A stretch of 64,000 bases of DNA, from sequence record PQ462667.1; one strand, written 5' to 3'. The position numbers and the translations under genes were made by a program. Positions within the stretch are counted from its first letter, which is position 1; each line of letters starts with the position of its first letter. Source of the DNA: Escherichia phage HMD-P3. The notes beneath the pieces are model-generated. The model was not told where the DNA came from. It ran no database searches and saw nothing but the letters and a program-made list of their open reading frames with translations. Below, one piece after another: positions 2,923-37,920 of this stretch.

Positions 2923-3900
2923 ATGAGGCTTTATAAACCTGATAATGCCACCGTTTTAAAAGGTGCGCTGCGTAACCTGCTGGATGGTAGCAGAACAACC
3001 AGCATTAAGCACTTTGTTAACAAGGCCGAAGATATTCACCAAAATTTTTTTGATGATTTCGACGCCTATGATATGAGTAGTTTTTTGCAACTATATAAGC
3101 AAGGGGCAACGCTTGTTTTATATAATCGGGATAATCACCTGCTCACTAGTCGGGGGCCGGATACTGATTTCATAATCGTAAAAGGCAACACAGTAAAAGC
3201 CTATGATACTGGGGCGGGCTTAGAAGTTTTCACAATAGTAAACTATGAGGCTAATGATAATGATCTTTATGACGTAGAAAATTTTCTTGATTCATTTTGG
3301 CGTTATTTATCAGTTGGCTGGAATCGGTCAATTGGTGACGGGTATCGTCTGGCGGCTGTAATGGCCTTTGATGATGATGGCAATTTTTTGCTACCGTCGG
3401 AAATATACCCCTACATATATGATGGAGATATAGAAAGCGCGGGCTTTTCTTTCTGGAAGGAGAAAGATCAGCCCATTGACAACACGGAAAAACATGCTGT
3501 AAATTCTAGCACTCAAACTACTGAAAACAAAGGAAAAAATGCCATGACCAAGATCTCTAATATCGTTGCCGCCAATAAGTCTGCCGTTGTAAACGCTGCA
3601 AAACTGGAAGCGGGTAAAATTGCACTAACTCAAATCACGAAAGTAGCGGCTAAAAAAGCACCGTTCATGATCAAAGGTTATATCGATACGCCGATTGGTC
3701 GTGTAGTGATCGCTAACCTGCTGAGTGTAGCGGTTGACCAGTACGCCCCGAGTAACCAGAAAGCGAAAGCGGTAGCGGGGGCGGCTATGGAAGCGGCAAT
3801 GTTAGAAATGGTGCAAAGTTTTAACATCGCTGAGATGATCGATGAAATGGTAAAAGGTATCGATATTTCTACTTTTACCGTTAACACCGAAAACGAGTAA
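2923..3900 (+). CDS. hypothetical protein (325 aa)
   Basis: Long ORF with strong SD (gagggagg) 7 nt upstream; followed by a hairpin and T-run. Confidence 0.7.
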   Translation: MRLYKPDNATVLKGALRNLLDGSRTTSIKHFVNKAEDIHQNFFDDFDAYDMSSFLQLYKQGATLVLYNRDNHLLTSRGPDTDFIIVKGNTVKAYDTGAGLEVFTIVNYEANDNDLYDVENFLDSFWRYLSVGWNRSIGDGYRLAAVMAFDDDGNFLLPSEIYPYIYDGDIESAGFSFWKEKDQPIDNTEKHAVNSSTQTTENKGKNAMTKISNIVAANKSAVVNAAKLEAGKIALTQITKVAAKKAPFMIKGYIDTPIGRVVIANLLSVAVDQYAPSNQKAKAVAGAAMEAAMLEMVQSFNIAEMIDEMVKGIDISTFTVNTENE

Positions 3901-25506: not shown

Positions 25507-25573
25507 TTGGTTTCCCTCTCATTAATTTATATAAATATTATAACAATAAATAAGAGAGAAAGCAAATGAATTT

Positions 25574-25741
25574 TTAATAAAGTTTAGTCACTTCATAAAC
25601 TATACTACGAGATTCTTTATTACGTTGTATTAAATTAGCATATGCTTCTTCAGCTTCATTTTTAGTATTAAAGTCTATAACGTGAGAGGTATTAGCTCTG
25701 TTTGATTGGCTATACCAGATAACTACTAGGAGTTTAAACAT
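25574..25741 (-). CDS. hypothetical small protein
   Basis: Start moved to an internal Met to avoid overlap with the tRNA 3' end. Confidence 0.35.
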   Translation of the reverse strand: MFKLLVVIWYSQSNRANTSHVIDFNTKNEAEEAYANLIQRNKESRSIVYEVTKLY

Positions 25742-26695: not shown

Positions 26696-26720
26696 ATTTT
26701 ATTTCCTATTTAAGTTAATT

Positions 26721-26797
26721 TGGGGTGGCTAGTGGAATTCGAATCCACATAGGCCTGATTCACAATCAGGATCATTAACCAATTATGATATAGCCAC
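26721..26797 (-). tRNA. tRNA-His (GTG)
   Basis: Anticodon arm cctga-ttGTGaa-tcagg; discriminator C. Confidence 0.65.
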
Positions 26798-27165
26798 AAT
26801 TGAAAACTCGCAGGGTTAGCGAAACCTCCCTCAATTAGCATGTTCTAGAATACTAATCAAGTTATCTCCTATTGCACGCAGCTCAAGACGAGTACGAATT
26901 TTCAATTGTGGCGGCTCTCCGAAACTCTTCTACTCTAGCCTTAGCAGCTTACTCCCGAACGCATGTCGGGGAAGTCTTACTAAGAGCATCAAATAGCACC
27001 GTTACACTTTGAGCCATAGATATATCAAGAAGTAGAAGGACTTGAACCTTCACGAGATAGACCATTTATCTCAGCCGCTTTATGAGGTATGTTGTAGGGA
27101 GTGGATGTTCCCTATAAACCTTTTAGGCAGCCCCGTCTACCGATTCCGGCATACTTCAAGAACTT

Positions 27166-27348
27166 TTATAAACCAGCAGAAGCCTCATTTAAAGCATCAA
27201 CAATAGCCTGTTGTTGCGTCCATCCTCTACCAGTAGAATTAACATGTGGAAGATATACTTCCCAATAACCGTCCTCTAGTAAGGTTATTTGTGCACTAAA
27301 CTCTGTGCCATCAGTTAGTGTAACCTTCACAGTTTTTGTTAAAGACAT
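27166..27348 (-). CDS. hypothetical protein
   Basis: 60-aa ORF. Confidence 0.4.
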   Translation of the reverse strand: MSLTKTVKVTLTDGTEFSAQITLLEDGYWEVYLPHVNSTGRGWTQQQAIVDALNEASAGL

Positions 27349-27364
27349 ATATTATCCTATAAGT

Positions 27365-27454
27365 TGGCAGAAGATAATGGAGTCGAACCATCACCGTATC
27401 GCTACAGCGGGCTGGTTTTCAAGACCAGTTACGTACCACTACGTCCTATCTTCT
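27365..27454 (-). tRNA. tRNA-Ser (TGA)
   Basis: Long variable arm; anticodon arm ctggt-ctTGAaa-accag; discriminator G. Confidence 0.7.
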
Positions 27455-27467
27455 AGTATTTATTGTA

Positions 27468-27815
27468 CTAATAGTCACTCGTACTAGTGAAGTTTTCTAC
27501 TTTTCCACAAATTTTACAAGTCCTACGATGGTAGTAGGTAATTTTTACTTTAGACCAGCCATCGTGATCATTACCTAGGTTTTCTGTTACTCCCCAAGTA
27601 TGAGAACACTCATTTTCAATTTGCTTAGTAAGAGCGTTATAGCGAGTATAAAACTCCTCCTGAGCAATAGCAAATTCTTTCTGTAGTTTATCACGAGCAA
27701 TAATAGCACGTTCCAGATATGTTAAATCAGGCATTCCAGCTTTTTCAGCAGCATCTATAATCTTATCTTCATCTAAAGATGCTAAAAACTCTAGAGCTTT
27801 ATCTTTTGCTAGCAT
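27468..27815 (-). CDS. zinc-finger-containing protein
   Basis: CSHTWG...CKICGKV. Confidence 0.5.
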   Translation of the reverse strand: MLAKDKALEFLASLDEDKIIDAAEKAGMPDLTYLERAIIARDKLQKEFAIAQEEFYTRYNALTKQIENECSHTWGVTENLGNDHDGWSKVKITYYHRRTCKICGKVENFTSTSDY

Positions 27816-27834
27816 TATTATTACCTCAAATGTT

Positions 27835-27925
27835 TGGCGGAAGAGGAGAGATTTGAACTCTCAAGCCGTTTTACCAGTCAGCCACTTTCCAAGCGGTTTT
27901 CGTCGCCAATTCGATTTGCTCTTCC
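27835..27925 (-). tRNA. tRNA-Ser (GGA)
   Basis: Long variable arm; anticodon loop ttGGAaa; 3' GCCA. Confidence 0.6.
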
Positions 27926-28037
27926 AATAATAAGATGATGCCTCTATCACGCCAGGCAGTTACGCCTCGCTGGGATTCGAACCCATTAAAACAGCTCAAC
28001 CGAGATAGTAGGTTTAATTTACTCTGACCATCAAATT

Positions 28038-28120
28038 TGGTGCTTGCGGAGGGACTCGAACCCACACGAATTAACACGAACTCCTAAGGATCGCGCGTCT
28101 ACCAATTACGCCACGCAAGC
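28038..28120 (-). tRNA. tRNA-Leu (TAG)
   Basis: 5' gcttgcgtggcgtaattggtagac resembles E. coli tRNA-Leu; anticodon loop ctTAGga. Confidence 0.6.
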
Positions 28121-28606
28121 AATTATTTCTTCAAGTGGAGCATGAACCCACTCATTATTTCTAGATGAAAAAGAACTTAGGATTTCTTTTTCTTTGAGTT
28201 CATAATTATCTACTAGTTTATAATACTCTAATACATAGTCCCGAAAAGGGGAGTATGTTTGATAGGTATTTAATCTAGTCTCAGCATCTTTGGCTGCTCC
28301 TACTTTAAACCAGCCTGGAAAAGCTGGATTAGATATTATATAAATATATCCCAGCTTATTATTTATATTATTGATATAACAGTAAAGCTGTACTACTCTT
28401 AGGGATCTTTGATAGCTATGCTCTAGTCTCTTTTGGTATGTATTTGACTTCTTATCCTTACTAGGATTGGCCTTTCTAACTATATACCCATTATACCATA
28501 GAGCTATTTGCATGTAATTACTAGCGGTTACGTCTAGTTTGTTATTGTGGAGGAATATTTCTAACTCATTTAAGTTATCTTTTCTCCCATTTTTAGCTAT
28601 CTTCAT
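28106..28606 (-). CDS. T5orf172/GIY-YIG-like domain protein (homing-endonuclease-like)
   Basis: GYIYIISNPAFPGWFKVGAA...YQTYSPFRDY; paralog of 31392..31937. Confidence 0.65.
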   Translation of the reverse strand: MKIAKNGRKDNLNELEIFLHNNKLDVTASNYMQIALWYNGYIVRKANPSKDKKSNTYQKRLEHSYQRSLRVVQLYCYINNINNKLGYIYIISNPAFPGWFKVGAAKDAETRLNTYQTYSPFRDYVLEYYKLVDNYELKEKEILSSFSSRNNEWVHAPLEEIIACVA

Positions 28607-28624
28607 ACTACATACCCTTTAATT

Positions 28625-28700
28625 TGGTGGACAGTAGGAGAGTCGAACTCCTCACTCCTGAGTGCAAGTCAGGTATTTTCCCCAGATAAACTAACCGCCC
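28625..28700 (-). tRNA. tRNA-Ala (TGC)
   Basis: G3-U70 pair in the acceptor stem; anticodon arm cctga-ctTGCac-tcagg. Confidence 0.7.
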
Positions 28701-28985
28701 AAACTCTTTAGTTTACTAAGGCTATTAGCTCGGCGTAACTACAGCACCTTCGCTTCAAGCGGAAGGAACCGCGTCATCTCGCAAACCCGATACACTATTC
28801 AGTTGCCGCTGAATCTAGTGGACTAATCTAGAACTTCTCCCGAATCATAGGGATCGTGCTTTTTGGCAGCCAGTCCTAGGTCGAGCTAATACCTTAGTGA
28901 ACTATGATGAGGATTTCTCCTCATCAATTTATATAAATATTATAACAAGAAATTAAGCATCAAGCAACTGCATTTTTCTTGAAAT

Positions 28986-29064
28986 TGGTGGGTCGCCTGG
29001 GACTCGAACCCAGAACCTTCCGATTAAAAGTCGGATGCTACTAAACCTATTGAGCTAGCAACCC
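28986..29064 (-). tRNA. tRNA-Lys (TTT)
   Basis: Anticodon arm tccga-ctTTTaa-tcgga; T-arm ctggg-ttcgagt-cccag. Confidence 0.7.
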
Positions 29065-29073
29065 AAAATAACT

Positions 29074-29151
29074 TGGTAGCGGGTTCCAGTACTGCCCTGG
29101 ACTTACTTAGCTTATGAGACTAAGAAGAACTCTATGCCTCCCACCCGCAAT
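29074..29151 (-). tRNA. tRNA-like element, anticodon CAT, with non-canonical T-loop (GGCAGUA) and unpaired 1:72
   Basis: Anticodon arm ttagt-ctCATaa-gctaa, D-stem gagg/cttc, T-stem tccag/ctgga, CCA encoded. Confidence 0.35.
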
Positions 29152-29155
29152 TGTT

Positions 29156-29231
29156 TGGTCAGTGCGGCAGGACTCGAACCTGCGACCCGAAGCATCCAAG
29201 GCTCCCACGCTACCAACTGCGCTACGCACTG
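29156..29231 (-). tRNA. tRNA-Pro (TGG)
   Basis: 76 nt; anticodon loop ctTGGat; T-arm gcagg-ttcgagt-cctgc. Confidence 0.7.
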
Positions 29232-29240
29232 TTAATTCTT

Positions 29241-29438
29241 TTATTGTGGAGGAATATTAATAATTCGTCCATCTACACAATAAACGGTACTAGGAATCGT
29301 ACTATATATGTAGAAATTCTTTATATTACTCTCTCCGCCACAGAAATTTTTAGCAAATTCATACTCTTTATTAATGGTTGAGTCAAATTTAAAACAACCA
29401 GTAAGTAGGAATACAGATAGTAATAAAACTTTCTTCAT
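29241..29438 (-). CDS. small lipoprotein
   Basis: MKKVLLLSVFLLTGC (signal peptide with lipobox). Confidence 0.5.
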   Translation of the reverse strand: MKKVLLLSVFLLTGCFKFDSTINKEYEFAKNFCGGESNIKNFYIYSTIPSTVYCVDGRIINIPPQ

Positions 29439-29891
29439 TTAGCTTTCCTTCTCTTCACTTTATAAGATATATTATACAGAGAATTAAGCAGAATAGCAAA
29501 TGAATTTTTAATAAATTTACTTATTGTGTAGGCCACCTGGAGGCTACCAACCCCACGGCTGACAAAGAAGTTTGCGAGACCTCTCTTAAATGCCAGAATA
29601 GACCCGCCGATCTATCGGAACCTACATAATAAGTAAACTTTATAGTGTCATTCTAGACAGGACTCGAACCTGTTATCACTTGTGCGGACTTACGAGAACC
29701 ATTCTTTCACTCGAATCGAACGAGCTTCTGCCCTCGCCAAGCTGGTTTCCCCATCAACCACGCTAGAATGTTTGATTATTTTCAGTGCAAGAGTCCGAGT
29801 CTTGGACACGACCGCTTCGCAAGTACATAGGCAGCTTATCATGAGTCAGCACTTCCGAATTGCTAGCCCCGTGTTCTGCACTGAAATTTTG

Positions 29892-30239
29892 TTAATTTAA
29901 CAGTAAAGTACGATCTACTTCACCATTAATTGTTCGGCATTCTTCTGGGATCTCTGGTGTAGCCTTATATTCCCACCACTCAGAACCGTCATATTCACCA
30001 CGTTCTAACCAAGTTCCGTCAGTAAACCATACATTACCATAAAGCAATTGCCCACCATAACCAGAATCATATTTAAAGTCTAGATTATTTAGAAAATCTT
30101 CAATATCTTTTTCTGTATAACCTACGGGCAATACCCAAACTTCTTTGTCCCCATAATAACCGAATTCTATCTTAATACACTTAACTTCAGAATTAGTATT
30201 CTTTAGGGCAAGTAACAACTCTTCTTTAGCATTAATCAT
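29892..30239 (-). CDS. hypothetical protein
   Basis: 115-aa ORF. Confidence 0.5.
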   Translation of the reverse strand: MINAKEELLLALKNTNSEVKCIKIEFGYYGDKEVWVLPVGYTEKDIEDFLNNLDFKYDSGYGGQLLYGNVWFTDGTWLERGEYDGSEWWEYKATPEIPEECRTINGEVDRTLLLN

Positions 30240-30265
30240 AGCATATTTCTCGTGCTAGTTTAATT

Positions 30266-30342
30266 TGGCGCGACCGATGGGATTTGAACCCACATTCCCT
30301 CCCGTGACAGGGGAGTACCATTACCAAGCCAGCCCCGGTCGC
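30266..30342 (-). tRNA. tRNA-Asp (GTC)
   Basis: Anticodon loop ctGTCac; discriminator G. Confidence 0.7.
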
Positions 30343-30351
30343 ATAATTCAT

Positions 30352-30537
30352 TTACTCAGCTTTGAGTTTTTCAATAGCTGCATTAAGTTCCTTAAGAAAC
30401 TCTTTCCGTACATTAAGCTCTCGAATACTCATTAAAAGATCAGCCTTTCGAGCTTCAATATCTTTTTGTCGGCACTTAATGTTATTAGCTGTGTTATCAC
30501 GATGAACTTCTAACTGTGCAATTACATTCTTGGACAT
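30352..30537 (-). CDS. small coiled-coil protein
   Basis: 61-aa ORF. Confidence 0.4.
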   Translation of the reverse strand: MSKNVIAQLEVHRDNTANNIKCRQKDIEARKADLLMSIRELNVRKEFLKELNAAIEKLKAE

Positions 30538-30639
30538 GCTTGTTTCCTCAGTTATTAATGAAAATGGTATCTGTGGCTGAATTCGATGTCAGCAATGATA
30601 GCTGGTTGGCTACCGGCTTACTTAACTCTACACAGAATT

Positions 30640-30722
30640 TGGCGGGCCGTGTAGGATTCGAACCTACGTTGTCTTTCGACACGGATTAACAATCCGCCAC
30701 CAAACCGCTTGGCTAACGACCC
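30640..30722 (-). tRNA. tRNA, anticodon GTT (Asn?) with unusually long variable region
   Basis: Anticodon arm gcgga-ttGTTaa-tccgt; T-arm gtagg-ttcgaat-cctac; 83 nt. Confidence 0.5.
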
Positions 30723-30730
30723 TAAAAATT

Positions 30731-30806
30731 TGGACGACCGCATGAGATTTGAACTCACATAAAAAGGATTTGCAATCCTTCGCCTAAGCCATTCAGCCAA
30801 CGGTCG
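30731..30806 (-). tRNA. tRNA-Cys (GCA)
   Basis: Anticodon arm aagga-ttGCAaa-tcctt; discriminator U as in tRNA-Cys. Confidence 0.7.
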
Positions 30807-30875
30807 ATTTATCTTGTTCTGCCATGTTGCTTCTCCAGTTCAATTTATGTAATTATTATACAGAACTTTTGTAAA

Positions 30876-31163
30876 CTAAGCAACTACATTTTTTAAGAAT
30901 TTGATGCCTTTCTTTTTCTTCTTATATTTCCACGTTAAGGGATTCTGTCGATTATGAACGCTTGAGATCTTCGTCTCATCAAAGTTCTTCAATATCATGT
31001 AATCACAAGATAGTTGTTCTAGTGGAATGTGATCACCGTCAAAAGCATATACATAAGGCTGTTGACTAGCACGATAATGATAGACTTTGTTAATTCTACG
31101 TTTCAGCGACTTATCCGCGCAGTAAATAAAGAAATTTTCAGGATGCATCAGCAGCTCCTTCAA
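30876..31163 (-). CDS. hypothetical protein
   Basis: 95-aa ORF. Confidence 0.45.
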   Translation of the reverse strand: MKELLMHPENFFIYCADKSLKRRINKVYHYRASQQPYVYAFDGDHIPLEQLSCDYMILKNFDETKISSVHNRQNPLTWKYKKKKKGIKFLKNVVA

Positions 31164-31165
31164 AT

Positions 31166-31240
31166 TGGTGCACCCTGTTCGTATCGAACGAACCTCTCAA
31201 GCTCTTCAGGCAAGCGCTAATCCATCTCAGCTAAAGGTGC
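31166..31240 (-). tRNA. tRNA, probable Phe (GAA)
   Basis: Acceptor, D-stem and T-arm (gttcg-ttcgata-cgaac) are good; anticodon stem has two mismatches in my reading. Confidence 0.5.
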
Positions 31241-31246
31241 AAATTT

Positions 31247-31322
31247 TGGCAAACCTACTAGGACTCGAACCTAGACCGTACGGTTTTGGAGACCGACATG
31301 CTGTCCAGTAACACTCTAGGAA
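31247..31322 (-). tRNA. tRNA, probable Trp (CCA)
   Basis: Anticodon loop ctCCAaa and T-arm ctagg-ttcgagt-cctag are good; acceptor pairing poor in my reading. Confidence 0.4.
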
Positions 31323-31331
31323 TGCAGAAAT

Positions 31332-31406
31332 TGGTACACCCACGGAGAATTGAACTCCGATTCTCAGATTGAAATCCTGATGTCCTAACCATTAGACGAT
31401 AGGTGC
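31332..31406 (-). tRNA. tRNA-Glu (TTC)
   Basis: D-arm tcgtctaatggttaggaca resembles E. coli tRNA-Glu; anticodon loop atTTCaa. Confidence 0.6.
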
Positions 31407-31937
31407 ATTAACTATTTCTTTATTAACTTTCTGTACTAAATGTTCCAAGCCAGAAAGTTTATTAATTTGTTCAAATATTTTATTTAGTTTTCTCTGAGGC
31501 AACTTAACCCATTCATGGTCCCTATCTTGATAGAGGCTATGGACAAACTTTTCGCCTTCCTTTCTATCAAACCAGAAAGACCAGTGTAGCATTGTATAGT
31601 CCCTAAAAGGGCTATATGTTTGATAGTTTGCTAAGCGTTTCTTTGGGTTAGCTGACATACCAATCTTAAAATAATTGGGCCAGGCCTTATTTGCTATAAA
31701 ATATATGAAGCCTTCTTTTATGGGAAGTTTATTTTCTTGCTTAAATTTAATTAAGGATAAGCACAATAGTTTAACATTATATCTAAGATCTCCTAAGGAG
31801 ACTTTCTTAGCCTTTGTATTACTTAACTCTAAGTAAACTTTCGAGCATTCAACTATTAAATCTGGAGTTATATCAAACTCCTTAGTTTTTGTTATTATCT
31901 GTCTTTTTTGAAGCTCATTTATTAACTTATTGTGCAT
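31392..31937 (-). CDS. T5orf172/GIY-YIG-like domain protein (homing-endonuclease-like)
   Basis: GFIYFIANKAWPNYFKIGMS...YQTYSPFRDY; paralog of 28106..28606. Confidence 0.65.
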   Translation of the reverse strand: MHNKLINELQKRQIITKTKEFDITPDLIVECSKVYLELSNTKAKKVSLGDLRYNVKLLCLSLIKFKQENKLPIKEGFIYFIANKAWPNYFKIGMSANPKKRLANYQTYSPFRDYTMLHWSFWFDRKEGEKFVHSLYQDRDHEWVKLPQRKLNKIFEQINKLSGLEHLVQKVNKEIVNAPIV

Positions 31938-31955
31938 ATTACTTCCTTAGTAATT

Positions 31956-32036
31956 TGGTGGGGGATGGAGGACTCGAACCTCCGCGTGATATACCCGGTC
32001 TACAGCCAGGCGCCGTCGCCACTGAGCCAATCCCCC
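31956..32036 (-). tRNA. tRNA-Tyr (GTA)
   Basis: Acceptor gggggat; anticodon arm cctgg-ctGTAga-ccggg; long variable arm. Confidence 0.65.
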
Positions 32037-32225
32037 ATATTTGAATGAAAAGTAAGTCGGTTAAACTCAAGGTGGAATATTTCAGGATTTCCTGACTTTA
32101 CCCCTAAAGGCAACTCGCCTAATTACTTCTCATTCAGATATGTTTCCAAATTAGATAAATATTATATCAAGTTTTATAGTATTGGGCAAGTCAAATTTTA
32201 AAGAACTTGCCCAATGCTGTATTAG

Positions 32226-32501
32226 TTAGTCGAACTTAGGAGTGACAGTTAAGGAGAACGGAAGTTCAAAAACTTCTTCGCCCTCATCACTAACAGTGAT
32301 TACACGACCTTTAAGTTCAGACATTGAAATATCAATATCAGCTTTTGCATCTGGAGCCATGCCAGCTTCAACACATTTAGCTTTAATTTCCGGCAGAAGT
32401 TCTACATCGTAGAAATAAAGCCATTCAATCTCACCTTCCCAGCCTTCCCAGGATTTACAGATTGCACTTTCAATACCAGCTGCTATAACACGATTTTGCA
32501 T
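32226..32501 (-). CDS. hypothetical protein
   Basis: 91-aa ORF with promoter/leader module upstream. Confidence 0.5.
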   Translation of the reverse strand: MQNRVIAAGIESAICKSWEGWEGEIEWLYFYDVELLPEIKAKCVEAGMAPDAKADIDISMSELKGRVITVSDEGEEVFELPFSLTVTPKFD

Positions 32502-32591
32502 TCGTTAACTCCTTCATCAATTTATACAACTATTATACCAGAAATTTAAAGCAAAAGGCAAGTACATTTTTAAAAATTCTGTTTGGAGGAG

Positions 32592-32798
32592 CTAAACTCC
32601 AGATTCTTCAGCCAAGTCTAGACTAATAAGAGATATAGCCATAATTGCCGCTCCATGTTCTTTTTCTCCAGTCTCTTTAGCTAGAGTTATAATGTCAAGA
32701 AATTGCTTATGAAAATCTGCAACCTCTTGAGTTATACCTGCCTCAGCAATCATGCCTTTAAGCATGAAACGTTGTGCTGTAATTTCAGGATTAGCCAT
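32592..32798 (-). CDS. hypothetical protein
   Basis: 68-aa ORF. Confidence 0.4.
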   Translation of the reverse strand: MANPEITAQRFMLKGMIAEAGITQEVADFHKQFLDIITLAKETGEKEHGAAIMAISLISLDLAEESGV

Positions 32799-32973
32799 GT
32801 TGTTTCTCCAGTTTCATCTTTAATAATCTACAAATAAAATCAATGTCTTCATCCGTGCCTAGATCTCTGTCTTCAAGAGTTGCCTTGAAGTTTTTAGTCA
32901 ATTCCATGAGGATAACTTCCCTAGAACGACGTGTTGGCGGAGGTGGATGTCTATACATCTTATTTCCTTAATT

Positions 32974-33050
32974 TGGTAGGGGTGGTGGGATTCGAACCCA
33001 CAAAACCTGAATTTTAAGTCCAGTACCTATGCCAATTCGATTACACCCCC
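32974..33050 (-). tRNA. tRNA, anticodon TAA (Leu-UAA-like) with short variable arm
   Basis: Anticodon arm ctgga-ctTAAaa-ttcag; T-arm gtggg-ttcgaat-cccac; 77 nt. Confidence 0.5.
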
Positions 33051-33151
33051 ATGTAATCAGTTTATTAGTTGATACATATTATAGCCTAGTGAAAATCCTA
33101 CTACTAGTCCTACAAACCAACCAATATAATAATCTTTTAGTTTCACAGGTA

Positions 33152-33553: not shown

Positions 33554-33631
33554 TGGTGGCTCCCCGAGGATTCGAACCTACGTACCTTCCGGTTATGAGC
33601 CGGGTGCTCATACCATATGAGCTTGAGAACC
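33554..33631 (-). tRNA. tRNA, anticodon CAT (Met or Ile2)
   Basis: Acceptor ggttctc/gggagcc (G-U pairs), D-stem gctc/gagc, anticodon loop ctCATaa. Confidence 0.55.
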
Positions 33632-37340: not shown

Positions 37341-37844
37341 TTTAAGTATTTTTAAGAACTCTCGTAAAAACTCTTAAAAATACAGACGATACCGGGAGAG
37401 TCATAAGTCTCACTCATTAAGTATTTCAAGACAAAATACGGTAACGTCTACTATTTTCCAGTTTAAGTCAGGGTGACTTAGTGGTTATGTCCTGCGGTAT
37501 ATTGAGGACTCGGTTAGGCTCGGGGTCATGACTTCCCGCCTTTTGCTGCTACTCAACAGGAGTTATCGCGAATTACCTGTGCTATTGTGCACCATTAGTG
37601 ACATCTCTCATGCCAGCATTTCCCACTTTGTGGATAGCTTGAAAAACTACTCCGATATGGAGAAAGAACTTCACTATCCTAGAATACCTTCTAAAGTTCT
37701 TCTTTAGCCTGGACATAGTTAAATCGTAATAAAACTATTCAGCAGACTGGTTGGTTAGTCTGGAACCAACTACCGCGTGGTTTAGGCAGTGCGCAACTAA
37801 CCTCGGAAGCTTTTACTTTAAAAGCATCAGTTATCCAGTTCTTA

Positions 37845-37920
37845 CCGACCATAGGATTCGAACCTACATCTTCCACCAGTTACGGCTTGATAATACCAAT
37901 TATACTAGGACGGCAGTGTT
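37845..37920 (-). tRNA. tRNA-like element, no encoded CCA, anticodon not resolved
   Basis: T-arm gtagg-ttcgaat-cctat and 6/7-bp acceptor found; anticodon arm not convincingly foldable by hand. Confidence 0.3.

What the first reader, a model, noticed from the sequence alone, without database searches (positions are those of the whole stretch)
26798..27165. 370-nt ORF-free segment with degenerate tRNA-like pieces between tRNA-His and the next genes
Contains a T-arm-like motif (gaagg-acttgaa-ccttc, about 27036-27052) and several hairpins but no foldable acceptor stem. A second remnant at about 27955-28035 has a T-arm (ctggg-attcgaa-ccca) without acceptor partner or CCA. A third at about 29650-29770 has a perfect 7-bp acceptor (attctag/ctagaat) and T-arm but is about 120 nt long. 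These look like decaying or insertion-bearing tRNA genes, or ncRNAs derived from tRNAs.
Basis: partly seen in the sequence, partly recalled or inferred. Interest (0 to 1): 0.45.

Follow-up and report, generated by a model that had tools for sequence, protein, structure and literature searches.

The report
Known T5 stable RNAs beside tRNA-His
The "empty" 370 bases hold three small structured RNA genes (RNA1, RNA I, RNA III) that are already annotated in phages T5 and BF23, one of them a tRNA look-alike that cannot decode; they are real and conserved, but what they do is still unknown.

Summary
The window is a T5-like phage (Demerecviridae) with a minus-strand tRNA array. The segment 26798-27165 is not decaying DNA. 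It matches, base for base, three misc_RNA genes annotated in the T5 RefSeq and the BF23 tRNA-region records:
- RNA1, "tRNA-like stable RNA, unknown function": 27160-27016.
- RNA I: 27015-26909.
- RNA III: 26904-26799, directly abutting tRNA-His.

About 500 phage records carry the segment, and almost none annotate it.

- **RNA1** is a class-II, Leu-like cloverleaf. Its anticodon loop is replaced by a 41-nt covarying extension capped by a nearly invariant loop, ACAUCCAC. It has no CCA.
- **RNA I** is a covarying rod with an acceptor-like stem and an encoded GCCA end.
- **RNA III** is a slot whose interior differs between phages (33-148 nt, seven versions). It is always closed by a 13-20-bp helix that pairs RNA I's CCA with the 5' end of tRNA-His, probably a processing hairpin.

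The third remnant (29646-29770) is the annotated tRNA-like RNA2. The second (27926-28037) is a conserved, unannotated structured element.

A viable T5 deletion removes all three RNAs, so they are accessory. Verdict: real, already known, function open.

The parts
27016..27160 (-). RNA1: tRNA-like stable RNA. It is the homologue of T5 rna1 (30501-30644) and BF23 rna1. The tRNA-like core runs 27158-27027.
   Evidence: BLAST and annotation. Rfam tRNA 27.2 bits. Cloverleaf at minimum free energy. Covariation on 23 sequences: 97.5% paired, 14 of 35 pairs compensatory, 0 of 500 shuffles reach this.
27079..27126 (-). Extension that replaces the RNA1 anticodon loop: two internal loops, a 4-bp helix and a 6-bp hairpin.
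   Evidence: Helices 4 and 5 hold 5 pairs with compensatory change. The Rfam alignment shows a 45-nt insert in the anticodon loop.
27101..27108 (-). Apical loop ACAUCCAC (with its flanks, GAACAUCCACUC). It is nearly invariant across four phage lineages.
   Evidence: Columns 52-63 of alignment A2 are invariant except for one A-to-G change in T5. The same holds in the metagenome relative L157.
27035..27051 (-). RNA1 T arm, GAAGG-UUCAAGU-CCUUC.
   Evidence: helix 7, 100% paired.
26909..27015 (-). RNA I: a 107-nt rod-like stable RNA with a 5-bp acceptor-like stem and an encoded 3' GCCA (CCA at 26911-26909).
   Evidence: Annotation. Consensus fold. 98.1% paired against 24-48% in the slid controls, and 8 of 21 pairs compensatory.
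26799..26904 (-). RNA III: a 106-nt stable RNA, a three-way junction inside a long closing helix. This window has cargo version A.
   Evidence: Annotation. Fold z-score -2.7 alone and -5.3 with flanks. Seven cargo versions found.
26794..26911 (-). 19-bp closing helix. CCACAAUUGAAAAUUCGUA (26911-26893) pairs with UGCGAGUUUUCAAUUGUGG (26812-26794). It ties RNA I's CCA end to the first four bases of tRNA-His.
   Evidence: The helix is 19-20 bp in six cargo versions and 13 bp in the seventh, with compensatory changes at positions 7, 9, 12, 13 and 15-19.
26721..26797 (-). tRNA-His (GUG), the downstream neighbour in the same transcript.
27926..28037 (-). Second 'remnant': a conserved structured element between tRNA-Leu(UAG) and tRNA-Ser(GGA). 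It is not annotated in BF23. The T-like hairpin is at 27985-27971.
   Evidence: Found in 247 phage records. Its hairpins covary with the Klebsiella phage versions. T5 has the hegC gene at this site.
29646..29770 (-). Third 'remnant': RNA2, a tRNA-like stable RNA. It is the homologue of T5 rna2 (32959-33083) and BF23 rna2.
   Evidence: The acceptor stem and T arm covary.

Best explanation
The segment encodes three small non-coding RNAs already named in phages T5 and BF23: RNA1, RNA I and RNA III.

Transcription and release. They sit in the phage's minus-strand tRNA operon with no promoter or terminator of their own. They are therefore made as part of a long precursor that also carries tRNA-Ser, small ORFs and tRNA-His, and are cut out by host tRNA-processing nucleases.

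RNA1. It is a mimic of a class-II (Leu-type) tRNA, with an acceptor stem, a D arm with GG, a long variable arm and a T arm. The anticodon loop has been replaced by a 41-nt helical extension ending in a nearly invariant 8-nt loop, and no CCA is encoded. It cannot decode. Most likely it is a tRNA-shaped scaffold that presents this loop to a partner, either a protein or an RNA.

RNA I. It is a rod-shaped hairpin whose base imitates an acceptor stem with an encoded GCCA tail. That is the kind of end RNase P and the 3' trimming enzymes produce.

RNA III. It is a module of variable content closed by a helix of about 19 bp. The helix joins RNA I's CCA to the 5' end of tRNA-His. It most likely acts as a double-strand processing site (RNase III type) that frees both neighbours, and its excised body survives as a stable RNA.

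Biological role. All three are accessory rather than essential.

What is shown and what is inferred:
- Shown here: identity, structures, covariation, and module swapping between phages.
- Taken from annotation: that these RNAs accumulate as stable species.
- Inferred: which nucleases act, and what the RNAs do.
For: Identity
- The window is 90% identical over the whole segment to BF23 3019-3385, where rna1, rnaI and rnaIII are annotated.
- The T5 RefSeq carries the same three features, described as stable RNAs of unknown function.

Non-coding
- No Pfam or PHROG match for the short ORFs.
- The ORFs are not conserved among homologues.

RNA1 structure
- Cloverleaf at minimum free energy.
- 23 distinct sequences from Tequintavirus, Epseptimavirus, Sugarlandvirus and Pectobacterium phage DU_PP_V: 97.5% of cells paired against 42-51% when partners are slid, 14 of 35 pairs with compensatory change, 0 of 500 shuffles as good.
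- Near-invariant apical loop.
- Not a decoder: no CCA, U.U at 1-72, G instead of U33 in most T5/BF23-type sequences (C in two), missed by ARAGORN and below Rfam's threshold.

RNA I
- 98.1% paired, 8 of 21 pairs compensatory.
- GCCA end in all 27 distinct versions.

RNA III
- Seven unrelated interiors of 33-148 nt, all closed by 13-20 uninterrupted base pairs from CCAC to GUGG.
- z = -5.3 with flanks.
- The ends annotated in T5 and BF23 leave a 2-nt 3' overhang on this helix (with the sequence).

Operon context
- No promoter or terminator inside the segment.
- BF23 promoter P13b maps upstream at about 28925-28975.

Accessory status
- The viable T5 mutant T5-123 lacks 29191-32442, which contains all three genes.
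- Only the fragment 31885-32870, which lies outside them, rescued growth on PARIS+ cells; the two other cloned segments of the deletion had no effect (PMC11464382, with the coordinates).

RNase III precedent
Against: - No experiment could be run or read here that shows the RNA ends, the nucleases, or any partner. The original papers are not in the held library.
- The 2-nt overhang rests on annotated coordinates whose experimental basis I could not check. RNase P at tRNA-His plus RNase E after RNA I would give the same ends.
- The complement of the invariant loop is not enriched in the 64-kb window, so no target within this window is evident.
- RNA III version A is 97-99% identical between phages whose RNA1 differs by 15%. 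That is more constraint than a mere processing hairpin needs.
- RNA1's D stem never varies, so its tRNA-type D arm is assumed rather than proven.
Confidence: 0.7

Rival explanations
1. Processing by-products only. The three RNAs are punctuation for the polycistronic transcript: RNase P, RNase III and RNase E entry sites that separate small-ORF mRNAs from tRNAs. They have no function once excised.
For: - They are packed end to end with 0-4 nt spacers between an ORF and tRNA-His.
- RNA III's interior is freely replaceable while its closing helix is kept.
- Deleting them leaves the phage viable.
Against: - A 12-nt stretch in RNA1 stays nearly invariant while the stems around it covary.
- The base of RNA I is sequence-invariant.
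- RNA III version A is 97-99% conserved across diverged phages.
- All three are annotated as accumulating stable species.

Each of these points to selection on the mature RNAs.
Confidence: 0.25
2. Anti-defence decoys. RNA1 and RNA2 are tRNA-shaped baits that occupy or inhibit host enzymes that target tRNAs, such as anticodon nucleases or enzymes that modify the acceptor end. The swappable RNA III cargo would be another fast-changing countermeasure.
For: - They lie among T5 tRNA genes, and at least one of those tRNAs is a proven counter-defence: tRNA-Lys against PARIS (PMC11464382).
- They are accessory.
- The modules reassort between phages and the RNA III slot is hypervariable.
- RNA1 keeps the tRNA body but not the parts needed for decoding.
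Against: - No direct evidence.
- Of the three cloned segments of the T5-123 deletion, only 31885-32870, which excludes these RNAs, rescued infection of PARIS+ cells.
- RNA1 has no 7-nt anticodon loop for an anticodon nuclease to recognise.
- RNA1 itself is slowly evolving, unlike a typical arms-race molecule.
Confidence: 0.17
3. Decaying tRNA pseudogenes.
For: - ARAGORN does not call them.
- Rfam scores RNA1 just below its threshold.
- The relic CUUAAAA loop has been lost in some lineages.
Against: - Compensatory changes keep every stem intact.
- They are present in about 500 genomes.
- T5 and BF23 annotate them as stable RNAs.
Confidence: 0.03
4. RNA1 is a working tRNA-Leu whose 41-nt insert is an intron that is removed to give a decoder.
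For: - The tRNA-Leu-type body, and in T5/BF23 an intact CUUAAAA sequence next to the 3' anticodon-stem strand.
- tRNA-Leu(UAA) genes of cyanobacteria carry group I introns (from general knowledge, not tested here).
Against: - The insert is 41 nt, against more than 200 nt for group I introns, and matches no intron family.
- The would-be anticodon loop is not conserved between lineages.
- No CCA, and a U.U pair at 1-72.
- Enterobacteria have no tRNA splicing endonuclease (from general knowledge).
Confidence: 0.03
5. The segment encodes small proteins, as some GenBank records annotate ('hypothetical protein').
For: A 38-aa ORF starts at the AUG in RNA1's variable-arm loop (26949-27065, minus strand), with a GAG five bases upstream.
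Against: - The ORF is 38, 44 or 68 aa, starts elsewhere, or is absent, depending on the phage.
- No family match.
- The substitutions follow base pairing, not codons.
Confidence: 0.02

Closest known systems
T5 and BF23 stable RNAs rna1, rnaI and rnaIII (misc_RNA features in NC_005859 and NC_042564)
   Same: They are homologous in sequence: 84-85% for RNA1, 91% for RNA I and 98% for RNA III. The order is the same, the lengths match within 1 nt, and all abut tRNA-His.
   Different: The window's RNA1 is a sequence variant. Its extension hairpin is UAGGGA/UCCCUA instead of CUAGGA/UCCUAG, and the relic CUUAAAA loop is lost.
Phage T4 species 1 and species 2 RNAs (rnaC, rnaD)
   Same: These are small stable RNAs of unknown function encoded at the end of a phage tRNA cluster. 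rnaC also has a T arm next to a terminal stem and a large inserted domain.
   Different: There is no sequence homology beyond 7-13-nt words, and the phage family is different.
Class-II bacterial tRNA-Leu(UAA)
   Same: The 18-nt D-arm stretch GCCGGAAUCGGUAGACGG is identical. RNA1 also shares the UUCAAGU T loop, the long variable arm and the cloverleaf shape.
   Different: RNA1 has no 7-nt anticodon loop, no A73 and no CCA. It has a U.U pair at 1-72 and a 41-nt extension, and falls below Rfam's tRNA threshold.
Bacterial Y RNA-like tRNA mimics (YrlA)
   Same: The idea is the same: a non-decoding RNA with tRNA-like acceptor, D and T arms joined to a long helix that serves as a protein-binding site. 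This comparison is from general knowledge.
   Different: Rfam gives no match to any Y RNA family. In YrlA the RNA ends lie in the long helix, whereas in RNA1 they lie in the acceptor stem. No Ro-binding motif was looked for.
RNase III processing hairpins between genes of phage and rRNA precursors
   Same: RNA III has a helix of about two turns bracketing a variable interior. Annotated product ends leave a 2-nt 3' overhang, and the helix would release the flanking RNAs.
   Different: Cleavage was not shown. The excised body is itself a conserved stable RNA.

Membership tests
T5/BF23 stable RNAs RNA1, RNA I, RNA III | Sequence homology to the annotated T5 and BF23 genes over their full length | tested here: met
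   368 of 368 nt aligned at 90% to BF23 and T5. The units are 85%, 91% and 98% identical.
T5/BF23 stable RNAs RNA1, RNA I, RNA III | Same order and position: after the T5.063-like ORF, directly before tRNA-His | tested here: met
T5/BF23 stable RNAs RNA1, RNA I, RNA III | Accumulation as discrete stable RNAs in infected cells | not testable with these tools
   Known only from the annotation notes 'stable RNA'.
Canonical tRNA (Rfam RF00005), tested on RNA1 | Score at or above the gathering threshold, or a call by a tRNA finder | tested here: not met
   27.2 bits against a threshold of 29. Not called by ARAGORN.
Canonical tRNA (Rfam RF00005), tested on RNA1 | Acceptor, D, T (and variable) arms in cloverleaf order | tested here: met
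   Fold and covariation. The D stem is invariant, so it is uninformative.
Canonical tRNA (Rfam RF00005), tested on RNA1 | 7-nt anticodon loop with U33 | tested here: not met
   48 nt lie between the anticodon-stem strands. Position 33 is G in most T5/BF23-type sequences and C in two of them.
Canonical tRNA (Rfam RF00005), tested on RNA1 | 3' CCA end, which is encoded in this phage's other tRNAs that were read | tested here: not met
   The acceptor 3' strand is followed by UUGAUA.
tRNA gene with a group I intron | Intron of about 200 nt or more with a group I core, matching Rfam Intron_gpI | tested here: not met
   The insert is 41 nt and there is no match at E up to 10.
tmRNA | tRNA-like domain plus a tag reading frame | tested here: not met
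   ARAGORN finds no tmRNA and Rfam gives no hit.
T4 species 1 and 2 RNAs | Sequence homology to rnaC or rnaD | tested here: not met
   Only 7-13-nt word matches.
RNase III substrate (RNA III closing helix) | Uninterrupted double helix of about two turns | tested here: met
   19 bp here, and 13-20 bp in all seven cargo versions.
RNase III substrate (RNA III closing helix) | Products with 2-nt 3' overhangs; cleavage dependent on rnc | tested here: inconclusive
   The annotated ends of T5 and BF23 RNA III give a 2-nt 3' overhang. The basis of those ends is unknown and no cleavage assay was possible.
Any other Rfam family (RNA I, RNA III and the RNA III variants of other phages) | Covariance-model match | tested here: not met
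   Nothing but tRNA hits.

The most novel reading that the evidence does not exclude
RNA1 and its sibling RNA2 are tRNA-shaped baits or regulators. Their near-invariant loop captures a host or phage factor that handles tRNAs, for example an immune nuclease, a modification enzyme or a ribosome-associated factor. The RNA III position is a swap-in slot for a changing repertoire of small effector RNAs. Together these would make the T5 tRNA region an RNA-based host-interaction island.
Probability: 0.17. Interest if true: 0.75.

Novelty: already known. Interest (0 to 1): 0.3.

Why it matters
For this scan, the finding resolves to ordinary annotated genes of the type phage, so it is not a discovery.

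It does show a practical gap. About 500 T5-like genomes carry these RNAs, yet nearly all leave them blank or call spurious small ORFs over them.

The function of the RNAs is still listed as unknown in the T5 and BF23 records. The comparative picture built here gives concrete handles for experiments:
- a tRNA mimic with a near-invariant loop;
- a CCA-ended rod;
- a cargo-swapping slot closed by a helix of about 19 bp;
- free reassortment of the three modules between phages.

This is timely because other genes of the same T5 region have recently turned out to be counter-defence tools.

Tried and rejected
- **Rfam.** Searched at permissive thresholds on the segment, on 26700-30000 and on seven related loci. 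Only tRNA hits came back, and no family matched RNA I, RNA III or its variants.
- **tmRNA, RNase P RNA, 6S RNA, ribozymes and group I introns.** Considered because of the segment's size, about 370 nt. No support.
- **A target for the invariant loop.** The complement GAGUGGAUGUUC, allowing up to 2 mismatches, gives 4 matches against 3.9 expected, and one of them is the gene itself.
- **Homology to T4 rnaC and rnaD.** None.
- **Descent of RNA1 from this phage's own class-II tRNAs.** No closer to its Leu tRNAs than to Ser or Tyr. The D arm instead matches bacterial-type tRNA-Leu.
- **Wider relatives of RNA1.** A viral-contig scan and the single metagenome scan returned only T5-like phages, plus one divergent relative, L157.
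- **Literature.** Searches for the original T5 stable-RNA papers and for any recent functional work found nothing in the held library.
- **A possible kink-turn at the base of RNA I.** The C stem is followed by an AAA bulge and then G.A pairs, clearest in the Eps7 type. I noticed this by eye only and did not test it.

Full report
**Context.** ARAGORN finds 22 tRNA genes, all on the minus strand, between 24757 and 37340. Rfam adds two more, the last ending at 37914. Megablast of 26000-30000 hits 555 phage records. These are T5-like phages of Salmonella, Escherichia and Klebsiella in the family Demerecviridae, and the best match is Salmonella phage HMD-P5 at 97.5%. The finding lies upstream, in the direction of transcription, of tRNA-His (26721-26797). 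It lies downstream of a 60-aa ORF at 27166-27348.

**What the segment is.** A blastn search with 26798-27165 finds 499 phage records, and 261 of them cover at least 80% of it. Nearly all show no annotation there. A few show "hypothetical protein". The BF23 tRNA-region record shows rna1, rnaI, rnaIII and tRNA-His.

The BF23 record NC_042564 annotates three features in order, all on the minus strand:
- RNA1, 3380-3237, "tRNA-like RNA with unknown functions".
- RNA I, 3236-3130, "stable RNA with unknown functions".
- RNA III, 3125-3020, with tRNA-His following directly.

The T5 RefSeq NC_005859 has the same three features at 30501-30644, 30394-30500 and 30284-30389. Aligning the window to BF23 places them here:
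- RNA1 at 27160-27016.
- RNA I at 27015-26909.
- A 4-nt spacer, CAAU.
- RNA III at 26904-26799.

Identity to BF23 and T5 is about 85% for RNA1, 91% for RNA I and 98% for RNA III. The segment is therefore three known genes, not debris.

**Coding potential.**
- The ORFs of 38-55 aa that overlap the segment have no Pfam or PHROG match.
- The only sense-strand ORF starts at the AUG in RNA1's variable-arm loop. Depending on the phage it is 38, 44 or 68 aa, starts elsewhere, or is missing.
- One PHROG (phrog_28521) matches the ORF at 26710-26841. That ORF lies over the tRNA-His gene, so the family is probably a set of miscalled ORFs.

**RNA1.**
- Rfam's tRNA model matches 27158-27027 at 27.2 bits (threshold 29), with a 45-nt insert in the anticodon loop and a long variable arm.
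- The minimum-free-energy fold is a cloverleaf.
- I collected 23 distinct sequences from Tequintavirus, Epseptimavirus, Sugarlandvirus and Pectobacterium phage DU_PP_V.
- On a cloverleaf with an extended anticodon arm, 97.5% of cells pair, against 42-51% when partners are slid by 1-3 columns. Fourteen of 35 pairs show compensatory change, and no shuffle out of 500 does as well.
- The extension consists of an internal loop, a 4-bp helix, a second internal loop and a 6-bp hairpin. Both helices covary.
- The hairpin loop and its closing pairs, GAACAUCCACUC, are invariant except for one A-to-G change in T5. They are also kept in a divergent metagenome relative.

RNA1 is not a decoder:
- It has no 7-nt anticodon loop.
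- Position 33 is G in most T5/BF23-type sequences.
- U.U at position 1-72 is conserved.
- The acceptor is followed by UUGAUA rather than CCA.

Its origin is visible:
- The D arm GCCGGAAU(C/U)GGUAGACGG is the D arm of bacterial-type tRNA-Leu genes found in unrelated viral contigs.
- In the T5/BF23 type, the seven bases before the 3' anticodon-stem strand still read CUUAAAA, the tRNA-Leu(UAA) loop.
- The window's type and the Eps7 type have lost this relic.

**RNA I.**
- The consensus fold of 15 sequences of three types (107, 100 and 101 nt) is a rod. It has a 5-bp terminal stem followed by single-stranded GCCA, internal loops and an apical hairpin.
- 98.1% of cells pair against 24-48% in the slid controls. 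Eight of 21 pairs are compensatory, with 0 of 500 shuffles as good.
- The middle of the rod is replaced wholesale between types. The base sequences, GGCUCAAAG(U/A)GUAACGGUGC and GAGUUUCGGAGAGCCGCCA, stay fixed.

**RNA III.**
- The stretch between RNA I's CCA and tRNA-His differs in content between phages. It is 33, 68, 111, 122, 126, 138 or 148 nt long, with no similarity between the interiors.
- In every version the ends pair. CCAC (the last bases of RNA I plus one) through AAUUGA pairs with UCAAUU through GUGG (the first four bases of tRNA-His).
- The helix is 19-20 uninterrupted pairs in five versions, 19 with one mismatch in a sixth, and 13 in the 33-nt version. Compensatory changes occur at nine positions.
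- In the window, the fold of 26912-26794 has a z-score of -5.3.
- The annotated T5 and BF23 ends of RNA III (5' UGAAAA..., 3' ...UUUCAAU) leave a 2-nt 3' overhang on this helix. That is what RNase III produces.
- I infer, but cannot show, that the helix is a processing site. It would leave RNA I with four extra bases to trim and tRNA-His at or one base from its 5' end.
- RNase P at tRNA-His plus RNase E after RNA I would give the same ends.

**Module reassortment.** The three modules recombine freely between phages. For example:
- Eps7-type RNA1 and RNA I with T5-type RNA III (L119).
- Eps7-type RNA1 with T5-type RNA I and a unique RNA III (IrmaTschudi).
- T5-type RNA1 with Eps7-type RNA I (TrudiGerster).
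- PRF-SP13 and Sds2 carry an extra module of about 115 nt between RNA1 and RNA I.

**Transcription.** No promoter-like or terminator-like site of note lies inside the segment. The BF23 promoter P13b maps upstream at about 28925-28975.

- T5-123 lacks 29191-32442, which includes rnaIII, rnaI and rna1 by the coordinates.
- Its missing DNA was cloned as three segments. Only fragment 31885-32870, which carries tRNA-Pro, fMet, Lys and Val, rescued growth on PARIS+ cells.
- The three RNAs lie within the deletion but outside that fragment. They are therefore accessory and do not appear to be the PARIS suppressor.

**The other two remnants.**
- The third remnant (29646-29770) is RNA2 of T5 and BF23, annotated as "tRNA-like stable RNA".
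  - Its 8-bp acceptor stem and its T arm covary.
  - It contains a second T-like hairpin, CUCG-UUCGAUU-CGAG, which also covaries.
  - Relatives in phage EH2 and in Klebsiella phages end in NCCA.
  - A 41-nt stretch of it is 90% identical to a spacer between tRNA-Gly and tRNA-Cys in the T4-like Acinetobacter phage 133.
- The second remnant (27926-28037) is not annotated in BF23. T5 has the homing-endonuclease gene hegC at that site.
  - It is present in 247 records.
  - Its T-like hairpin and the hairpin after it covary with the Klebsiella phage versions.
  - Its fold alone is unremarkable, with z = -0.8.

**Comparison with known systems.**
- The closest analogues outside T5 are the T4 species 1 and 2 RNAs. 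These are also stable RNAs of unknown function at a tRNA cluster. They share no sequence with the T5 RNAs.
- No Rfam family covers RNA I, RNA III or the variant cargoes.

**Verdict.** What is added here:
- quantitative covariation support for RNA1 and RNA I;
- the near-invariant loop of RNA1;
- the tRNA-Leu(UAA) origin of RNA1;
- the cargo-swapping RNA III slot with its conserved helix;
- the reassortment of modules between phages.

Function remains open. My split among the functional readings is:
- about 0.25 for by-products of processing only;
- about 0.17 for tRNA-shaped decoys against host defences;
- the remainder for some other partner-binding role of the mature RNAs.

Noticed in passing
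window 27835-27925 (-): A tRNA-Ser(GGA) with the acceptor GGAAGAG/CUCUUCC and an encoded GCCA end. It is annotated in BF23 as tRNAS2. ARAGORN misses it, and Rfam sees it only as a weak tRNA-Sec-like hit of 19.7 bits.
   Followed up: partly
window 29073-29155 (-): An initiator-tRNA-like gene. It keeps the acceptor stem, the 1-72 mismatch, the ACCA end and the CUCAUAA anticodon loop of T5/BF23 tRNA-fMet. Its D and T arms are replaced: the T loop reads GGCAGUA instead of UUCGAUU. No tRNA finder calls it.
   Followed up: partly
window 29771-29891 (-): An unannotated 120-nt element just upstream of RNA2. It is closed by a stem of about 12 bp (UUUCAGUGCAAGAG / CUCUUGCACUGAAA region), with fold z = -2.5. 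Its conservation across phage records was not measured separately.
   Followed up: no
window 28718-28892 (-) and 29525-29627 (-): Homologues of two further annotated T5/BF23 stable RNAs of unknown function, RNA 2H and RNA IV. RNA IV folds with a long closing stem, z = -2.0.
   Followed up: no
L138 264-368 (Acinetobacter phage 133, NC_015250 69557-69618): A T4-like phage of another family carries a 41-nt stretch that is 90% identical to the interior of RNA2, between its tRNA-Gly and tRNA-Cys genes. Seven Acinetobacter phage records match. This suggests an RNA2-like element shared across phage families.
   Followed up: partly
window 26710-26841 (-): A 43-aa ORF lying over the tRNA-His gene matches phrog_28521 at E = 2e-35. 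This PHROG is probably a family of ORFs miscalled across a conserved tRNA gene.
   Followed up: no
L125 1640-1755 and L132 (phages PRF-SP13 and Sds2): An extra structured module of about 115 nt is inserted between RNA1 and RNA I in some Epseptimavirus genomes. It has no Rfam match.
   Followed up: no
window 25520-25580, 28925-28975, 29460-29515 (-): Repeated promoter blocks, TTG...N17...TATAAT followed by TATTTATATAAATT. They correspond to BF23 promoters P11, P13b and P13a. The simple consensus scan finds only the P13a one.
   Followed up: no
window 33557-33631 (-) and 37843-37914 (-): Two tRNA hits above Rfam's threshold (40.3 and 33.7 bits) that ARAGORN does not report.
   Followed up: no
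window 26798 (-), position -1 of tRNA-His: The base before G1 of tRNA-His is U, not the G(-1) that E. coli tRNA-His carries (the latter from general knowledge). This U pairs inside the RNA III closing helix. T5 and BF23 annotate tRNA-His as 78 nt, which may include it.
   Followed up: no
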